Shown in pieces: positions 9,974-23,860 of a DNA stretch of 29,355 nucleotides. The notes beneath the pieces are model-generated. The model saw only the letters and a list, made by a program, of their open reading frames with translations, did no database searches and was not told where the DNA came from. The DNA comes from a virus: positions 1-29,355 of IMG/VR virus record IMGVR_UViG_3300012936_000109; one strand, 5' to 3'. Both the position numbers and the translations under genes were made by a program. Position 1 is the first letter of the stretch. Each line of letters starts with the position of its first letter.

Positions 9974-10894
9974 TTATTTTCCATTTTCAGCCTTTATTAT
10001 TCTCTCAGCCCATCTCATCATCACATCTCCACCCCATAGATTATAGCTGATAGTACCACAGTCATCATAGTTTCCAGTATCATAGGCTTTGGCTCTTTTT
10101 AGATAGCTGTAGACCCTTTTGACAGTATCAAAGCTGATAGGCTTTCTCTGTTTGATTTGCTGTGCTCTGACTTTCCCAGTTTGAGTTGCACATTTATTTC
10201 CTCTTTTCTCATTTTCTCTGATAGCTCTATCTGCATTATTACTAGCTGATTTTGGATAGTCATTGTATGAGGCTAAATCTAGGATGTCTGCTAGTGCATC
10301 TAGTATATCTACTGGCTTTAGTTTTTTAGGTTTGCTAGTTTTTTTAGACAGTTTGCTCATTTTATCTACAAAGTATCCCTCTATACTATATCCTTTGACT
10401 TCCTGTCTTTTTATCATATCCCATACAGCATCATTATCCACTTTCATAGAAACCATCCATGTCCCTTTAGGAATATTTTTATATCCATATAATCTAGCTT
10501 TATCCATAGCTGTATCCTGCACTATCCAGCTCTCTACTGTAGTAACACCAGCAATCCTCTCATCATGCTCATATGTAGCTGATTTTTGATTATTATGTAT
10601 GAGATACAGCTCAGATGCTCTCTTGACTGTCTTTTCAGAGAAATAGACATAGTACTCATCTCCAGTCTGCTCATCTACTCTATATATCTGTTTATTAGGT
10701 ATCAGAGCTGGACCTACTAATAGCCTCTTTTCCTCATCTACTTTTGCTAGTATTATATTTTGTTTTTTATGTTTGTTTAGTGCTACCCAGTTCTCCTCTA
10801 TAGCTGGAGAATTGACTAGGCTAATTGCATCTATTGCTAACTGAGCCTGGTCATCATCTATGACTAGCTCTACTATTCTGGTTACTTTTTTCAT
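9974..10894 (-). CDS. Prohead serine protease, XkdF-like, with a C-terminal extension domain
   Basis: The N-terminus AISLVNSPAIEENWVALNK...LLVGPALIPNK...YFSEKTV...YEHD resembles the PBSX XkdF (S78_2) family. Its position upstream of the scaffold and capsid genes fits. Confidence 0.55.
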   Translation of the reverse strand: MKKVTRIVELVIDDDQAQLAIDAISLVNSPAIEENWVALNKHKKQNIILAKVDEEKRLLVGPALIPNKQIYRVDEQTGDEYYVYFSEKTVKRASELYLIHNNQKSATYEHDERIAGVTTVESWIVQDTAMDKARLYGYKNIPKGTWMVSMKVDNDAVWDMIKRQEVKGYSIEGYFVDKMSKLSKKTSKPKKLKPVDILDALADILDLASYNDYPKSASNNADRAIRENEKRGNKCATQTGKVRAQQIKQRKPISFDTVKRVYSYLKRAKAYDTGNYDDCGTISYNLWGGDVMMRWAERIIKAENGK

Positions 10895-20200: not shown

Positions 20201-21514
20201 CTAATATACATAATACCTGCCTGTATTAGGGTTTATTTCATAGTACATCCTCATCATCATAGTATCAGAATAGTCTGGAGACCTGCCTATTAAATCTTTG
20301 ATTTTGTCCTTTGCTAGTATGCTCAGTTTACTATCTTTGTCTATATTTATTCTTCTGACCTGCTCCAGCTCCTGTATCAGTTGCTCCTTAAATTTTATGT
20401 CATTTGTACTCACACCTATCTGTCCTTTATTTATCATATCAGCTAGTTTATAGTAGCACTGGGTCTTTAGATTTTGATAGTTTTCTTTGAGTAGAGGTTT
20501 ACTGTTATTTTGAAACCCTAGACATCTCAATATATCTTTGCATCCACCTCCTACACCATCCTCATCCACTATGATATTAGTCAGTGGTACAGCCTCTCTA
20601 TTCTGTATCTCTTTTATCCTATCAGCTACCTCTACCATACTACTACTATCCATGATGACTATATGTGATACCTGTAGACCATTCCAGTACATGATACAGG
20701 TCTTATCCTTTCCATATCTAGCTATATCAGCTGTGATATATTTATCTCCAGTAGGCACTACAGCACTAAACATATTGATGATACTATCATAGTTTATTAG
20801 CTGGTCTTGACTATCATCATATTCCCAGTCCCCCCTCAATAGTCTAGCTTTTGATATCTCATCTAGATTACCTAGCTGCTCTCTATAGTGTTTACTGATA
20901 TGCTGATTATCATCTACTAGTGCCTGTATAAATCTCCTGTGTTTAGGTAGAGCTCCCTCTCTATCTGGCTTATAGTACATCTGATATATCCATCCCTTTG
21001 TAGGGTTGCATGTCATCAGTAGTTTAGGTATTAGTCCATACTCATCAAGTCTATATCTGAGCCTACTAGATACTATCTGCTTTGCCTTTTCTGTCAGCTG
21101 AGATACCTCATCTATAAATGCAAATGTGAGCTCCAGAGAGCCTAGTGAATCATAGTTTGGGTCTGATGGATATAGAAATAAATCTTTGAGTATTATCTCA
21201 CTATCATTGTAAAATTTAATGATATTGCTCTGTCCATTATATGTGTAGTGTATACCAGATTTTAGTGACCACTGATTACAGATATCAAAAAAAGTATTGA
21301 GAGTAGTTTTTTTTAGAGTATCTAGTTTGCTCCTACCTATCATCCCTCTGATACCAGCATACTGTAGACATAGTATGATACTATATGCACATCCTAGATA
21401 GCTCTTTCCTCCACCAGCTGCACCTCCATAGAGCACCTCTGTTGTACTTTTATCCAGTAGATACCTCATAGCTATCTTCTGCTTTGTGATGAGCTGTGGA
21501 GATATATCTATCAC
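20201..21514 (-). CDS. terL: Terminase large subunit
   Basis: Walker A GGAAGGGKSY, Walker B-like TFAFIDEVSQ, and a C-terminal nuclease-like region. It overlaps TerS by 4 nt. Confidence 0.9.
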   Translation of the reverse strand: MIDISPQLITKQKIAMRYLLDKSTTEVLYGGAAGGGKSYLGCAYSIILCLQYAGIRGMIGRSKLDTLKKTTLNTFFDICNQWSLKSGIHYTYNGQSNIIKFYNDSEIILKDLFLYPSDPNYDSLGSLELTFAFIDEVSQLTEKAKQIVSSRLRYRLDEYGLIPKLLMTCNPTKGWIYQMYYKPDREGALPKHRRFIQALVDDNQHISKHYREQLGNLDEISKARLLRGDWEYDDSQDQLINYDSIINMFSAVVPTGDKYITADIARYGKDKTCIMYWNGLQVSHIVIMDSSSMVEVADRIKEIQNREAVPLTNIIVDEDGVGGGCKDILRCLGFQNNSKPLLKENYQNLKTQCYYKLADMINKGQIGVSTNDIKFKEQLIQELEQVRRINIDKDSKLSILAKDKIKDLIGRSPDYSDTMMMRMYYEINPNTGRYYVY

Positions 21515-21858
21515 TCAGTATGGTCTAGATTGATATTGATTTTTATAGGCTCTCCAGCTGAGGTATGGTCCATCTCTTGCCTCTCTACAAACCCTCTCCT
21601 TTTTCCCTTTGTTTTTAGATAGAATATAGTAGCTGATGTATTGCCATCCTTTATCTGTTTGAATAGCTCACTCTCTGCAAAATCTAGAGCTATGTCTGAT
21701 ACATCCTGTACATCTCTACTAAATGTCTCATCATTTTTTAGCCAATTATAAAATTGAGTTCTACCTACACCAGCTATCTTGCATGCTGTAGTGACTACTC
21801 CTAGAGATTTTACCAGAGCCTCTAATACTCTCTTTTTACTGTGTTCAGTTTTGTTCAT
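21511..21858 (-). CDS. terS: Terminase small subunit (HTH type)
   Basis: ALVKSLGVVTTACKIAGVGRTQFYNWLKND...FAESELFKQI...ATIFYLKTKGKRRGF is typical of HTH small terminases. It lies immediately upstream of terL. Confidence 0.75.
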   Translation of the reverse strand: MNKTEHSKKRVLEALVKSLGVVTTACKIAGVGRTQFYNWLKNDETFSRDVQDVSDIALDFAESELFKQIKDGNTSATIFYLKTKGKRRGFVERQEMDHTSAGEPIKININLDHTE

Positions 21859-22135
21859 AGTCTGTATCTATTATGTCTAAAAATTTATTATGTTTTTCTA
21901 GGTTACAGCTGCTCAGCTCTATATATGTTTTTTGCTCCTCTGGAAATGTATGTATAGCAAAGTGACTTTCTGCCAATAGCCATATAGCTGTATATCCCTC
22001 TGGCTCAAATTTATGCTGCATAAAATCTAGTACATTAAACTGTGCTCTTTTAAGTGCATTACAAAAATAGAACATCAGTAGCTCTGGGTCTGTCTCTGGT
22101 ATCCATTGACTATGTTTAAATATCTCAGCTTTCAT
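21845..22135 (-). CDS. speD: S-adenosylmethionine decarboxylase (pyruvoyl, class 1/SpeD-like) homologue, shortened (96 aa)
   Basis: FEPEGYTAIWLLAESHFAIHTFPEE...ELSSC matches the self-processing LxESHxxIHTxPE core. Ser57, His62 and Cys77 are spaced +5 and +20 as I recall for the Ser/His/Cys active site of small prokaryotic AdoMetDCs. Confidence 0.65.
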   Translation of the reverse strand: MKAEIFKHSQWIPETDPELLMFYFCNALKRAQFNVLDFMQHKFEPEGYTAIWLLAESHFAIHTFPEEQKTYIELSSCNLEKHNKFLDIIDTDYEQN

Positions 22136-23417
22136 CCTGTATTTCTGTAGTTAAATCTTTGTAATTCTTTTTGATTTTTTTGACATCCCCTTTGTAAAAC
22201 ACTAGTACATTCTGATGACATTTTCCTACCTTTCTATTCCTCATAGTCCTAGCTGCTCTCATAGCCAGTGTACCTATCATCTCTACTAGTATCATCTCAT
22301 TATATAGTCTCATACCAGCTCTATCAAATATATCCTTTATATGGTCTACAAATCTATAGTAGTATCCCTCTTTGTCTCTGATATCTCCTACTACTATCAC
22401 AGCAAATCTATCATCTTTTAGGCACTGTATAGCATCTGTAAAAGCTGTATCTAGTATAGTCATAAAGTCCTCATATGTCTCTTGATTACTAGCATCATTC
22501 TCCATATCACTATATACCTCTAAATCATAGTATGGTGGACAGCTAAATAGTAGGTCCTGTGTATCCTCTGCTATATGCTGTAGTACACTCCTACCATCAT
22601 CATTGATATACTCAGCTGTCATACTAGCTACTCTCTCATTATTTATATTAGCCTGCTCTGCTCTCAGCTCTATCCCAGTAAATGTATGTCCTAGACTAGC
22701 TGATACATACCCAAATACACTATCTCCAGCAAAACAATCAAACACTTTAGATGGTCCAGGAGTAAACCATTTGCATACTATCTCAGATAGTACAGGGTCT
22801 AGTATGGATACCTCTGGAGCTGCTTTTAGATTACCTTTCCATGTACCATACTGTAGCTCATTTAGCTCATTCATAGCTGTCTCTCTAGTCTCTCCTTTGT
22901 CTAGTATGAGATTTTTCCAATGTTTTTTTCTCTCTTGCCAGTATCCCTGTCTAGTATCTAGTATAGTAAATGGAGGTACACCAAATGTCTCAGCTAGCTC
23001 TATTCCCTCTGGCTGTTCTCCTACAGATATATCATCATCTGTGAAACCTACTAGCTCTCCCTGTGTAAACCCCCAATCTATGAGCTCCTTTTCATCAAAA
23101 TAATTAGCTAGAGCATCCATATCAAATGCTCCAGTATTTTTGTTTAGTCTGACATTTAACTCCTTTTCTTTGTTTAGGTCTAGACTGAGCTCCACTGTAG
23201 GCACCTCATCTATTCCCATACTCTCTGCTACTTTACATCTCTGATGTCCTCCTATGATGATATTTAGCCTGTCTGGATGAGTATTAACTATAATAGGGTC
23301 TACTATACCAAAACGATTGATTGAGGCTCTAATGTCCTCAAATTGCTCTGTACTGAGCTGTCTAGGATTGTACTCAGCTGGTATCAGCTCTGAGATTTTT
23401 CTATTAACTATTTTCAT
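22125..23417 (-). CDS. ParB-like nuclease domain fused to a SAM-dependent amino DNA methyltransferase
   Basis: The N-terminus has the ParB-N pattern (IVDPIIVN...IIGGHQRCKVAESMG). The C-terminal half has motif I-like VFDCFAGDSVFG followed by motif IV CPPY (FSCPPYYDL). Confidence 0.75.
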   Translation of the reverse strand: MKIVNRKISELIPAEYNPRQLSTEQFEDIRASINRFGIVDPIIVNTHPDRLNIIIGGHQRCKVAESMGIDEVPTVELSLDLNKEKELNVRLNKNTGAFDMDALANYFDEKELIDWGFTQGELVGFTDDDISVGEQPEGIELAETFGVPPFTILDTRQGYWQERKKHWKNLILDKGETRETAMNELNELQYGTWKGNLKAAPEVSILDPVLSEIVCKWFTPGPSKVFDCFAGDSVFGYVSASLGHTFTGIELRAEQANINNERVASMTAEYINDDGRSVLQHIAEDTQDLLFSCPPYYDLEVYSDMENDASNQETYEDFMTILDTAFTDAIQCLKDDRFAVIVVGDIRDKEGYYYRFVDHIKDIFDRAGMRLYNEMILVEMIGTLAMRAARTMRNRKVGKCHQNVLVFYKGDVKKIKKNYKDLTTEIQDES

Positions 23418-23625
23418 TATATAGAGTTTTTATATTTTTTAATATACTGGATAAACATGCTCTACAGCTAGTGCTCTCTCTGTATCTAGTACCAAATACA
23501 TCATTGTGTAGTCTGACCATCCTCCTAGTAGTCTCTACACTATCACTGTGACCACTTTTTACTAGTGGATATACCTCCATGAGCTCTGCTCTCTGTGCTG
23601 TAGATATATGTGCTCTACCTCTCAT
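23404..23625 (-). CDS. Hypothetical protein (73 aa from ATG 23625; the track ORF extends to 23751)
   Basis: The longer track ORF would overlap the Cys-rich ORF by 137 nt. The internal start MRGRAHISTAQRAEL... gives only an 11-nt overlap. The start is uncertain. Confidence 0.45.
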   Translation of the reverse strand: MRGRAHISTAQRAELMEVYPLVKSGHSDSVETTRRMVRLHNDVFGTRYRESTSCRACLSSILKNIKTLYNENS

Positions 23626-23860
23626 ACCATTTACCTCTAGGACATCTCTCAGATTTCCAGCTAGCTTTGGTCCTAATATGACATCCACATACATTACAGT
23701 GTTCCCATGGCTCCTCAGTACCATCCATATGCTCACACTGCATACACTCATGTAGTCTCATCTCATATTCTATACCCTCTAGCTTTCTCATTCTGTCATA
23801 TATATGTTTAGCTATTGCCCATAAAAATTTAAACAAATATTTGATGTTAATTTTTTTCAT
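23615..23860 (-). CDS. Cys-rich zinc-ribbon-like small protein (81 aa)
   Basis: HECMQCEH...HCNVCGCHIRTK...ERCPRGKW contains CxxC ... CxxCxC ... C metal-binding-like spacing. Confidence 0.6.
   Translation of the reverse strand: MKKINIKYLFKFLWAIAKHIYDRMRKLEGIEYEMRLHECMQCEHMDGTEEPWEHCNVCGCHIRTKASWKSERCPRGKWYER

What the first reader, a model, noticed from the sequence alone, without database searches (positions are those of the whole stretch)
21845..23417. Shortened AdoMetDC (SpeD-like) gene translationally coupled between a ParB-methyltransferase and the terminase genes
The 96-aa ORF carries the pyruvoyl-enzyme self-cleavage core LLAESHFAIHTFPEE. A Cys lies 20 residues after the Ser, so the Ser/His/Cys spacing matches small prokaryotic S-adenosylmethionine decarboxylases as I recall them. 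The protein is roughly 30 aa shorter than those enzymes. It overlaps the upstream ParB-domain CPPY methyltransferase by 11 nt and the downstream terS by 14 nt, so the four genes form one coupled unit. Several roles are possible: polyamine supply for DNA condensation at packaging, manipulation of the SAM pool against SAM-dependent host defences, or supply of decarboxylated SAM to the adjacent methyltransferase-fold enzyme. The last option is the most speculative and would imply aminopropyl-type DNA modification, by analogy with spermidine synthases, which share the methyltransferase fold. speD-like genes are known auxiliary genes in marine phages, but their function is unresolved.
Basis: partly seen in the sequence, partly recalled or inferred. 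Interest (0 to 1): 0.7.

Follow-up and report, generated by a model that had tools for sequence, protein, structure and literature searches.

The report
Phage SAM decarboxylase paired with DNA-modifying enzyme
The small gene is a real, short-form S-adenosylmethionine decarboxylase, and across many phages it is locked to a DNA-methylase-like neighbour whose cofactor pocket changes whenever the decarboxylase is present, which suggests that the neighbour uses decarboxylated SAM to modify phage DNA, a use not yet described.

Summary
The 96-aa ORF (21845-22135, minus strand) is a class-1b pyruvoyl AdoMetDC: Pfam PF02675 E=4e-15, Ser57/His62/Cys77 spaced as in T. maritima, AF2 pLDDT 93, best fold matches Aquifex and Thermotoga AdoMetDC. 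Its shortness is a family trait (PHROG 27309; more than 880 homologues, most listed ones 89-111 aa). A 57%-identical member from Croceibacter phage P2559S was shown experimentally to make dcSAM (Li et al., PNAS 2023).

The new result concerns the neighbour. ParB-methylase-fold gene plus SpeD is a conserved, co-diverging two-gene cassette: 77 of 80 viral loci chosen by SpeD, and Mantel r=0.74. The neighbour's motifs X and I carry a SpeD-linked signature (L206, D232, F235). Relatives without SpeD have F, G or R/K at one or more of these positions. At least three SpeD-less lineages nested inside the SpeD clade changed these positions (bootstrap 193-200 of 200). In bacterial chromosomes the same short SpeD sits beside a spermidine-synthase-like enzyme, which consumes dcSAM.

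Best reading (confidence about 0.5): SpeD supplies dcSAM to the adjacent enzyme, which alkylates phage DNA. Whether it transfers an aminopropyl or a methyl group is unresolved. The main rival is the published polyamine-boosting role. I found no paper describing the cassette.

The parts
21845..22135 (-). Short-form class-1b pyruvoyl S-adenosylmethionine decarboxylase (SpeD), 96 aa.
   Evidence: Pfam PF02675 E=4.2e-15. PHROG 27309 E=7e-38 over the full length. AF2 pLDDT 93.3. Foldseek top hits are Aquifex and Thermotoga AdoMetDC, TM 0.72. 57% identical to P2559S gp67, which is a validated AdoMetDC (PMC9992855).
21962..21970 (-). E56-S57-H58: predicted self-cleavage site. Ser57 would become the pyruvoyl cofactor.
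   Evidence: Invariant in the 44-sequence alignment A1. Corresponds to T. maritima S63.
21902..21955 (-). Stretch holding His62 (processing and catalysis) and Cys77 (proton donor), at Ser+5 and Ser+20.
   Evidence: H62 and C77 are invariant in A1. The spacing equals T. maritima H68 and C83.
22125..23417 (-). ParB_N domain fused to a methyltransferase-fold enzyme, 430 aa. It is the upstream partner in the cassette and the proposed consumer of dcSAM.
   Evidence: Pfam ParB_N and N6_N4_Mtase. PHROG 498 E=9e-127. AF2 model of the C-terminal domain has a class-I Rossmann methylase fold. A homologue lies immediately upstream of SpeD in 77 of 80 viral loci.
23190..23402 (-). ParB N-terminal (ParB/Srx) domain, aa 6-76, including GGHQR at aa 56-60.
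   Evidence: Pfam PF02195 E=6e-9. PDB profile hits to ParB, Spo0J and Noc.
22794..22808 (-). Motif X, S-I-L206-D-P. L206 is the best marker of SpeD linkage.
   Evidence: Leu in 44 of 44 non-redundant SpeD-linked enzymes. Phe in 28 of 30 SpeD-less ones, including the nested revertant lineages; only one SpeD-less enzyme keeps Leu.
22710..22742 (-). Motif I, FDCFAGDSVFG (aa 226-236). D232 and F235 form the SpeD-linked signature in the loop that binds the methionine part of SAM.
   Evidence: GD[ST]x[FML]G goes with an adjacent SpeD in 130 loci, with 2-3 technical exceptions. GGSVRG-type, GDTQKG and the rarer other variants were never next to SpeD (0 of about 80).
22530..22541 (-). Motif IV, CPPY (aa 293-296). 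This is a family-wide variant of (D/N/S)PP(Y/F) and is not specific to SpeD-linked members.
   Evidence: CPPY is also present in SpeD-less phiFL3A gp36, B054 gp77, Funu2 and Vincenzo gp1.
21511..21858 (-). Terminase small subunit-like HTH protein. Its start overlaps the end of SpeD by 14 nt.
   Evidence: PHROG 4044 and 309, terminase small subunit. ORF coordinates.
20201..21514 (-). Terminase large subunit.
   Evidence: Pfam Terminase_3 and Terminase_6N. PHROG 2.

Best explanation
The 96-aa ORF is an active short-form AdoMetDC that self-cleaves at Glu56-Ser57 and converts SAM to decarboxylated SAM (dcSAM). It is the second gene of a mobile two-gene cassette. The first gene encodes a ParB-domain-tethered, methyltransferase-fold enzyme whose methionine-binding motifs X and I have been remodelled: the Arg/Lys is lost, an Asp is gained in the glycine loop, and Phe becomes Leu in motif X. 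As a result it takes dcSAM rather than SAM as cofactor.

The pair is translated together (11-nt overlap) at the head of the packaging operon. The enzyme then alkylates phage DNA after replication, transferring either the aminopropyl group (spermidine-synthase-like chemistry) or the methyl group of dcSAM.

What is shown: fold, catalytic residues and family of SpeD; dcSAM production by a 57%-identical homologue (from the literature); cassette conservation and co-divergence; covariation of the pocket signature with SpeD. What is inferred: cofactor use by the neighbour, DNA as its target, and the nature of the transferred group.
For: 1. SpeD identity and likely activity. P2559S gp67 (57% identical, same short YIELSSC type) restores spermidine in E. 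coli delta-speD (PMC9992855).

2. Cassette: in 77 of 80 IMG/VR loci chosen only by SpeD, a homologue of the methylase domain (about 54% identical) ends between 74 nt inside and 12 nt before the SpeD start in nearly all loci. The pair also occurs in the cultured phages P2559S and Pseudomonas phage ZRG1, where SpeD is a classical 129-aa form. In loci chosen only by methylase similarity, every enzyme with the D..F motif and enough contig had SpeD adjacent or one ORF away.

3. Co-divergence: Mantel r=0.74, with 0 of 2000 permutations reaching it, over 44 non-redundant cassettes.

4. Pocket signature: L206, D232, F235 and R262 are the top discriminating columns. G..R-type relatives (59 GGSVRG loci plus three variants) never have SpeD. 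The complete genomes of phiFL3A, B054, Funu2, Vincenzo and HCTV-2 have no SpeD hit at all.

5. Independent events: the GDTQKG clade, L198 and L201 are nested inside the SpeD-linked clade (NJ bootstrap 193-200 of 200). All lack SpeD within the fetched flanks, and all changed L206 to F plus either F235 to K or loss of D232.

6. Parallel in bacteria: 46 of 58 chromosomal short SpeD genes sit next to a membrane spermidine-synthase-domain protein (PF01564, GGGDG loop), a known dcSAM consumer with the same fold class.

7. By the canonical motif-I register (my own knowledge), D232 occupies the position of the Asp in the spermidine-synthase GGGDG loop. Motifs X and I are the ones that contact the methionine moiety of SAM.

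8. ParB-like proteins are established partners of phage post-replicative DNA-modifying enzymes (PMC13229309).
Against: - There is no biochemical or nucleoside evidence. No structure with cofactor could be modelled here.
- The profile-profile alignment to spermidine synthase failed (hhalign probability 0.4). The structural neighbours of the enzyme are ordinary amino-methyltransferases.
- Asp232 alone is not sufficient, because the GDTQKG enzymes keep it without SpeD.
- Absence of SpeD in the revertant lineages was checked only within 3-4 kb flanks.
- The D..F clade is largely one clade, so much of the raw association is inherited.
- The short SpeD also occurs alone in jumbo-phage contigs (L010, L047). 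In bacteria it serves a spermidine synthase, so a purely polyamine role is viable, and hosts in Bacteroidota can have a dcSAM consumer of their own.
- One cassette (L177) has SpeD with its catalytic core deleted.
Confidence: 0.5

Rival explanations
1. Polyamine auxiliary metabolic gene (the published view). SpeD simply raises dcSAM so that the host aminopropyltransferase makes more spermidine for phage translation, replication or DNA condensation. Its position next to the methylase is historical linkage without functional coupling.
For: - The P2559S homologue restores spermidine in E. coli delta-speD with SpeE.
- AdoMetDC is described as rate-limiting and is the commonest phage polyamine gene.
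- The chromosomal short SpeD pairs with spermidine-synthase-like genes in Bacteroidota, so likely hosts have a consumer.
- It occurs stand-alone in jumbo-phage contigs and in cyanophages.
Against: It does not explain several results:
- the near-obligate adjacency and overlap with one particular methylase-fold clade across phages with unrelated terminases;
- the co-divergence;
- the changes in motifs X and I that track presence or loss of SpeD on independent branches.
Confidence: 0.3
2. SAM-pool sabotage. SpeD depletes SAM to disable SAM-dependent host defences (type I/III restriction, BREX and the like). The phage's own methylase has merely adapted to keep methylating with the resulting dcSAM, or works before depletion. 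This shares the altered-cofactor step of the main explanation but puts the selective advantage on depletion.
For: - The enzyme consumes SAM.
- The pocket signature is compatible with methyl transfer from dcSAM.
- The catalytic motif IV and the rest of the fold are the same as in the SAM-type relatives.
- From my own knowledge, phage SAM-degrading anti-restriction enzymes exist (T3 SAM lyase).
Against: - No defence-related evidence was obtained here.
- Pyruvoyl decarboxylases of this family that have been measured are slow (kcat about 0.1-1 per second for the ADC/ODC relatives), which makes bulk depletion doubtful.
- The gene sits at the head of the late packaging operon rather than among early genes.
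Confidence: 0.12
3. SpeD acts after transfer. The methylase-fold enzyme puts the 3-amino-3-carboxypropyl group of SAM on DNA, and SpeD then decarboxylates the DNA-bound amino acid.
For: Other members of the methylase family pair with enzymes that act on amino-acid moieties. Examples are an ACC-deaminase-like PLP enzyme in Vincenzo gp2 and the same domain inserted in Pam4 gp70, and PP-loop-like proteins after GDTQKG enzymes.
Against: - The P2559S SpeD works on free SAM.
- The SpeD-linked pocket has lost the basic residue expected to hold the SAM carboxylate, which fits binding of an already decarboxylated cofactor.
Confidence: 0.05

Closest known systems
Croceibacter phage P2559S gp67 AdoMetDC (YP_006560687), characterised in Li et al., PNAS 2023
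   Same: 57% identical over the full length. Same short YIELSSC-type architecture and same catalytic residues. It has the same upstream partner (gp66, D..F-type methylase-fold, overlapping).
   Different: It was studied only as a polyamine enzyme in E. coli, and the neighbour was not considered. In P2559S the pair lies at the right end of the linear record, followed by a gene annotated RNase E.
Class-1b prokaryotic AdoMetDC (Thermotoga maritima TM0655, PDB 1tlu/1vr7; Aquifex 2iii; B. subtilis SpeD, TIGR03330)
   Same: Same fold (TM 0.72), same Ser/His/Cys spacing and same ESH cleavage motif.
   Different: About 30 residues shorter, lacking the C-terminal part after helix 2. It scores 49 bits against TIGR03330, below the 75.65-bit equivalog cut-off.
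Spermidine synthase / aminopropyltransferases (SpeE, PF01564)
   Same: Class-I methyltransferase fold. Encoded next to SpeD (46 of 58 chromosomal short-SpeD loci; the E. coli speED operon is from my own knowledge). An acidic residue sits in the motif-I glycine loop at the same register position (GGGDG versus FAGDS; inference).
   Different: No detectable sequence relationship (no PF01564 hit; hhalign probability 0.4). The phage enzyme keeps an amino-methylase motif IV (CPPY) and a ParB DNA-associated domain, so its acceptor is presumably a DNA base and not a diamine.
Phage ParB-fused N6/N4-type DNA methyltransferases next to terminase genes (e.g. Enterococcus phiFL3A gp36, annotated DNA adenine methyltransferase; Listeria B054 gp77)
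   Same: 41-44% identical methylase domain. Same ParB_N fusion, same CPPY motif and the same position just upstream of terS/terL.
   Different: They have F at motif X and GGSVRG in motif I, and no SpeD anywhere in their genomes. As far as I could find, none has been characterised biochemically.
CmoA/CmoB (carboxy-SAM synthase plus carboxymethyl transferase of tRNA; from my own knowledge)
   Same: The logic is a dedicated enzyme that makes a SAM derivative, paired with a methyltransferase-fold enzyme specialised to transfer from that derivative to a nucleic-acid base.
   Different: Different chemistry, different families and an RNA target. It is an analogy only.

Membership tests
AdoMet_dc (Pfam PF02675), class-1b AdoMetDC | Profile match above the curated gathering score. 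| tested here: met
   56.4 bits against a cut-off of 25, E=4.2e-15, residues 16-89.
AdoMet_dc, class-1b AdoMetDC | Processing Ser in an E-S motif, with His at +5 and Cys at +20 (T. maritima S63/H68/C83). | tested here: met
   E56-S57, H62 and C77, invariant in 44 homologues. Reference residues from PMC10407285.
AdoMet_dc, class-1b AdoMetDC | Alpha/beta sandwich fold of solved AdoMetDC structures. | tested here: met
   AF2 pLDDT 93.3. Foldseek hits 2iii, 1tlu and 1vr7 with TM 0.72, E 6e-7 to 7e-6.
AdoMet_dc, class-1b AdoMetDC | Full-length architecture, including the C-terminal part after helix 2. | tested here: not met
   The Pfam match ends at model position 90 of 107, and 39 residues follow the pyruvoyl Ser against about 67 in T. 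maritima (my own numbering). This is a family-wide trait: in most loci 35-40 residues follow the Ser.
TIGR03330 SAM_DCase_Bsu (NCBIfam equivalog) | Score above the equivalog cut-off. | tested here: not met
   49.3 bits against 75.65. The long-form SpeD of phage ZRG1 passes with 86.1.
AdoMetDC (enzyme activity) | Autocatalytic self-cleavage and decarboxylation of SAM. | not testable with these tools
   Supported only by the 57%-identical P2559S protein, which restores spermidine in E. coli delta-speD (PMC9992855).
Neofunctionalised SpeD homologues (pyruvoyl ADC/ODC; SpeDA/SpeDC) | Four diagnostic residues (Gln, Thr, Phe, Tyr) of the ODC clade, or membership of the HTVC201P-like clade. | tested here: inconclusive
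   The positions are defined only in a figure that is not held. The closest characterised relative is a bona fide AdoMetDC and not an ADC or ODC.
PHROG 27309 (short phage AdoMetDC) | Full-length profile match. | tested here: met
   E=6.7e-38, residues 1-91 on profile positions 1-91 of 96.
N6_N4_Mtase (PF01555) amino-methyltransferases (the neighbour) | Profile match, and motif IV (D/N/S)PP(Y/F). | tested here: inconclusive
   Pfam 41.7 bits against a cut-off of 26.7, but motif IV is CPPY. The motif order is I then IV, permuted relative to the beta-class enzyme 2zie, which matches in two swapped pieces.
N6_N4_Mtase amino-methyltransferases (the neighbour) | SAM-binding motif I FxGxG, and methyl transfer to DNA. 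| not testable with these tools
   Motif I is F-A-G-D-S: the third Gly is replaced by Ser across the family, and the x position is Asp only in SpeD-linked members. Activity is unknown.
Spermine_synth (PF01564) aminopropyltransferases (the neighbour) | Sequence or profile homology to SpeE. | tested here: not met
   No PF01564 hit. hhalign probability 0.4. Foldseek neighbours are methyltransferases.
Spermine_synth aminopropyltransferases (the neighbour) | Acidic residue in the glycine-rich loop that selects dcSAM over SAM. | tested here: inconclusive
   D232 lies two residues before helix A (AF2), at the register position of the Asp in GGGDG. This equivalence rests on motif register only. The SpeD-less GDTQKG enzymes also keep the Asp.
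ParB_N (PF02195) | Profile match with the GxxR motif. | tested here: met
   36.3 bits against a cut-off of 26.3, aa 6-76, with GGHQR at aa 56-60. PDB profile hits to ParB, Spo0J and Noc.

The most novel reading that the evidence does not exclude
The ParB-tethered methyltransferase-fold enzyme is a DNA aminopropyltransferase. It uses dcSAM made by the co-translated SpeD to attach a 3-aminopropyl group to an exocyclic amino group of a base in phage DNA, releasing methylthioadenosine. This would create a cationic, polyamine-like DNA hypermodification that has not been described, and that would both neutralise charge for packaging and block restriction. In the wider enzyme family, relatives paired with PLP or PP-loop-like enzymes might install other groups derived from the amino-acid arm of SAM.
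Probability: 0.25. Interest if true: 0.92.

Novelty: new variant of a known kind. Interest (0 to 1): 0.72.

Why it matters
Phage speD is one of the commonest auxiliary metabolic genes and is read purely as a polyamine gene. If in this large group of phages and prophages (Bacteroidota mainly, plus Pseudomonadota and some Bacillota) it instead, or also, feeds a dedicated DNA-modifying enzyme, three things would follow:
- It would reveal a new cofactor use (dcSAM) for a DNA methylase-fold enzyme, and possibly a new cationic DNA base.
- It would change how speD counts in viromes are interpreted.
- It would provide a compact two-gene system of biotechnological interest for orthogonal, SAM-independent DNA alkylation.

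The idea can be tested directly, because two cultured phages (Croceibacter P2559S and Stutzerimonas phage ZRG1) carry the cassette. The three-residue signature also gives clear mutants to make.

Tried and rejected
- CPPY as a marker of dcSAM use: rejected. SpeD-less relatives (phiFL3A, B054, Funu2, Vincenzo, HCTV-2) also have CPPY.
- 'Hosts lack a dcSAM consumer, so the phage must bring one': dropped. Many Bacteroidota chromosomes carry the same short SpeD next to a spermidine-synthase-domain gene.
- Direct homology of the neighbour to spermidine synthase: hhalign gave only a spurious 27-column match, and Foldseek gave generic methyltransferases.
- Asp232 as a sufficient determinant: rejected, because the SpeD-less GDTQKG enzymes keep it.
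- 'The four genes form one conserved unit': only 3-4 loci share similar terminases, and the downstream terminases are of different families.
- A single-protein locus search with the methylase domain found only two loci, so an alignment was needed.
- Literature searches for dcSAM, aminopropyl or aminocarboxypropyl DNA modification in phages, and for ParB + methyltransferase + AdoMetDC, found nothing relevant.
- The PNAS supplement held as text does not mention P2559S.
- Interpreting the ORF as a truncated pseudogene: rejected, given family-wide length, invariant catalytic residues and a confident fold.
Full report
**1. The observation**

The window is a tailed-phage genome segment (36% G+C) with all genes on the minus strand. 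The order is: a replication module (exonuclease, DnaD-like loader, DnaB, RusA), a sigma-like regulator, a DUF6171 zinc-ribbon protein, a ParB-methylase, the SpeD-like gene, terS and terL. A tape measure, a protease and a portal follow.

The 96-aa ORF matches Pfam AdoMet_dc at E=4.2e-15, twice the gathering score. It matches PHROG 27309 end to end at E=7e-38, and solved AdoMetDCs at E=6.5e-7. E56-S57-H58, H62 and C77 reproduce the spacing of T. maritima S63/H68/C83, the residues needed for self-processing and catalysis (PMC10407285). An AlphaFold2 model built on 44 homologues is confident (pLDDT 93.3). Its best PDB matches are the Aquifex and Thermotoga enzymes, with TM 0.72.

**2. The short length is a family trait**

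A search of 5.8 billion proteins found 883 homologues. Most of those listed are 89-111 aa long (a few reach 123 aa) and are 52-84% identical to the window protein. In an alignment of 44 of them, the catalytic Glu-Ser-His, His and Cys are invariant. The fold is beta-alpha-beta-beta | beta-beta-alpha and ends after helix 2, so the C-terminal part of classical class-1b enzymes is missing. For that reason the protein scores below the NCBIfam equivalog cut-off: 49 bits against 75.65.

The closest cultured relative is gp67 of Croceibacter phage P2559S, 57% identical and of the same short type. Li et al. (PNAS 2023, PMC9992855) expressed that protein in E. coli BL21 delta-speD together with speE. It restored spermidine, so it is a bona fide AdoMetDC. 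Other phage homologues in that study turned out to be arginine or ornithine decarboxylases. I therefore take dcSAM production by the window protein as likely but not shown.

**3. A conserved two-gene cassette**

I fetched 80 IMG/VR loci selected only for encoding a short SpeD. In 77 of them, a homologue of the window's methylase domain (about 54% identical) lies directly upstream on the same strand. In nearly all loci it ends between 74 nt inside and 12 nt before the SpeD start. One exception is a 1.3-kb fragment. The other two are 250-290 kb jumbo-phage contigs in which SpeD stands alone near thymidylate synthase.

P2559S has the same pair, gp66-gp67. Pseudomonas (Stutzerimonas) phage ZRG1 has the pair with a classical 129-aa SpeD, followed by terS and terL. 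Similarity to the window's terminase genes appears in only 3-4 loci. In ten diverse cassettes, the large ORF downstream is a terminase of one of three unrelated Pfam families, or is unrecognised. So the conserved unit is the pair, which usually sits just before whatever packaging genes the phage has.

Across 44 non-redundant cassettes, pairwise identities of the two proteins are correlated: Mantel r=0.74, with 0 of 2000 permutations reaching this value. The pair therefore diverges as a unit.

**4. The neighbour's cofactor pocket tracks SpeD**

The methylase domain is a class-I Rossmann fold with motif order X, I, II, IV. The AF2 model has pLDDT 78, and its Foldseek neighbours are Trm11, TrmM, Bud23 and M.BseCI. 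It matches the beta-class enzyme 2zie in two swapped pieces. The family is large, with more than 7000 homologues.

It also occurs in relatives that have no SpeD, such as Enterococcus phiFL3A gp36, Listeria B054 gp77, Fusobacterium Funu2 and Mycobacterium phage Vincenzo gp1.

Motif I does differ between the two groups:
- Every SpeD-linked enzyme with a readable motif has FAG-D-[ST]-x-[FML]-G. That is 130 loci with SpeD adjacent. The 2-3 exceptions are a contig end, an ORF-calling artefact, and one locus with SpeD one gene away.
- The GGSVRG-type enzymes (59 loci plus three variants) and the GDTQKG type (11 loci) never have SpeD in the flanks. The same holds for a handful of rarer variants.
- The complete genomes of the cultured G..R-type phages give no SpeD hit at all.
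- At least 116 of the 120 nearest homologues of the window enzyme in the protein database show the D..F motif. For the other four, my pattern search returned an unrelated stretch.

A column-by-column comparison of 74 non-redundant domains ranks four positions as most discriminating:

| Position (window numbering) | SpeD-linked (44) | SpeD-less (30) |
|---|---|---|
| L206, motif X | Leu 44 of 44 | Phe 28 of 30 (Leu 1, Ile 1) |
| R262 | Arg 43 of 44 | Arg 2 of 30 |
| F235, motif I | Phe 43 of 44 | mostly Lys or Arg (Phe kept in L198 and L201) |
| D232, motif I | Asp 44 of 44 | Gly in the G..R type and in L198/L201; Asp kept in GDTQKG |

From established knowledge of methyltransferase motifs (Malone, Blumenthal and Cheng 1995), motifs X and I line the part of the pocket that holds the methionine arm of SAM. 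Losing a basic residue and gaining an acidic one there is what would be expected if the carboxylate were absent from the cofactor.

**5. The association is not just one inherited event**

In a neighbour-joining tree, the G..R enzymes form one clade and the Asp-type enzymes another (198 of 200 bootstraps). Three SpeD-less lineages are nested inside the Asp-type clade:
- The GDTQKG clade groups with the gut D..F clade to the exclusion of other D..F enzymes (193 of 200).
- L198 is sister to the SpeD-linked L173 (200 of 200).
- L201 groups with L194 and L173 (199 of 200).

Each of these lineages has Phe at 206 and has either gained Lys at 235 or lost Asp232.

Two caveats apply. The trees are distance-based. 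Absence of SpeD in these lineages was checked only within 3-4 kb of flank.

**6. A parallel in bacterial chromosomes**

I fetched 80 loci from GTDB genomes that encode the short SpeD. They are mostly Bacteroidota: Cytophagales, Flavobacteriales and Bacteroidales. Of these, 22 carry the D..F enzyme, adjacent in 21 and prophage-like. The other 58 have no such enzyme.

In 46 of those 58, SpeD lies on the same strand next to a protein of about 500 aa with several membrane helices and a spermidine-synthase domain (PF01564, E=9e-39, loop LILGGGDGCAVRE). So outside phages the same short SpeD is encoded beside a class-I-fold enzyme that consumes dcSAM.

By the canonical motif-I register (h-h-D/E-h-G-x-G-x-G, equivalent to D-x-F-x-G-x-G), D232 in FAGDS occupies the position of the Asp in GGGDG. 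As I recall from Korolev et al. 2002, that Asp is the residue that excludes the SAM carboxylate in spermidine synthase. This equivalence is an inference. A profile-profile alignment between the two families found nothing.

**7. Mechanism proposed**

SpeD and the ParB-tethered enzyme are translated together. SpeD self-cleaves and makes dcSAM. The neighbour binds dcSAM and alkylates phage DNA after replication, close to the time of packaging. ParB-like proteins have recently been shown to act with phage DNA-modifying dioxygenases (PMC13229309), which makes a DNA target plausible.

Whether the aminopropyl or the methyl group is transferred cannot be decided here. The catalytic motif IV and the rest of the fold are the same as in the SAM-type relatives, which argues for unchanged geometry. 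What those relatives transfer is itself untested.

Other members of the family pair with enzymes that act on amino-acid moieties:
- An ACC-deaminase-like PLP enzyme lies downstream in Vincenzo, and the same domain is inserted into the methylase domain in Pseudanabaena phage Pam4.
- A protein of about 400 aa with a PP-loop-like SGGKD motif follows some GDTQKG enzymes.

This hints that the amino-acid arm of SAM matters to the family, but it is only a lead.

**8. Rivals**

The published polyamine reading remains viable. It explains the stand-alone copies and the chromosomal SpeD-SpeE pairs. It does not explain the cassette, the co-divergence or the pocket signature.

A SAM-depletion role could coexist with the proposed mechanism. 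It fits poorly with the slow kinetics measured for pyruvoyl decarboxylase relatives (the ADC/ODC forms) and with the gene's late-operon position.

One cassette (L177) carries a SpeD with the catalytic core deleted. This is unexplained.

**9. Novelty**

The gene itself is a new member of a known, characterised kind. The cassette, and the inference that a DNA methylase-fold enzyme has been retuned to dcSAM, were not found in the literature searched. The PNAS 2023 paper that characterised the P2559S enzyme does not mention the neighbour: the word 'methyltransferase' does not occur in its main text. I rate the finding as a new variant of a known kind, with a directly testable and potentially much more novel reading, aminopropylated DNA.

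Noticed in passing
L137:1-2275 (Mycobacterium phage Vincenzo gp1-gp2); L139:2032-4521 (Pseudanabaena phage Pam4 gp70); L140 (Erythrobacter phage R6L gp1): SAM-type (GG[SP]VRG, CPPY) members of the same ParB-methylase family are paired with an ACC-deaminase/D-cysteine-desulfhydrase-like PLP enzyme (PALP). In Vincenzo it overlaps downstream. In Pam4 the PALP domain is inserted between motifs I-III and CPPY, inside the methylase domain. R6L gp1 matches the methylase domain in two separated pieces; whether a PALP domain lies between them was not checked.
   Followed up: partly
L174:4047-5204, and similar ORFs in L186, L187 and L193: GDTQKG-type methylases, which lack SpeD, are followed in some phages by a protein of about 400 aa with a PP-loop-like AFSGGKDCLA motif. 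It has only a weak DUF7411 hit. In other phages of this type a terS-like gene follows directly.
   Followed up: partly
L221-L300 (for example L288:2330-3970 and L296:4334-5389): In Cytophagales and Flavobacteriales chromosomes, the short SpeD sits beside a multi-membrane-helix spermidine-synthase-domain protein (46 of 58 loci). In 32 loci a K+-channel-like protein (Ion_trans_2 + TrkA_N) lies downstream. This looks like a conserved membrane-associated polyamine module.
   Followed up: partly
L177 (P2559S-like contig IMGVR_UViG_3300010935_000116): The SpeD next to a D..F-type methylase has an in-frame deletion that removes the whole catalytic core (...EPQGYT|YIELSSC...). It may be a decaying copy or an assembly artefact.
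   Followed up: no
L010:6001-6333 and L047:6001-6336: Two jumbo-phage contigs of 250-290 kb carry a 110-111-aa short SpeD. It has no methylase or spermidine-synthase neighbour and lies close to a thymidylate synthase-like gene.
   Followed up: partly
window 23404-23860: Two minus-strand ORFs overlap by 137 nt in different frames. One (23615-23860) is a DUF6171 zinc-ribbon protein with Pfam and PHROG support. The other (23404-23751, 115 aa) has no family hit, although it gives a weak translated match in related loci L002 and L004. It is unclear whether both are expressed.
   Followed up: no
window 9974-10894: This ORF matches head-maturation protease PHROGs and also phrog_1530, which is labelled 'DNA methyltransferase' (E=2.7e-16). 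This probably reflects a fused or mislabelled PHROG rather than a second methylase.
   Followed up: no
L135:2959-4366 (Clostridium phage phiCTP1 gp51-gp52): This member of the methylase family has no ParB domain, has SPPY instead of CPPY, and has motif I GGEQTKG. It sits in the replication module. A 171-aa protein without a family hit overlaps its end.
   Followed up: no
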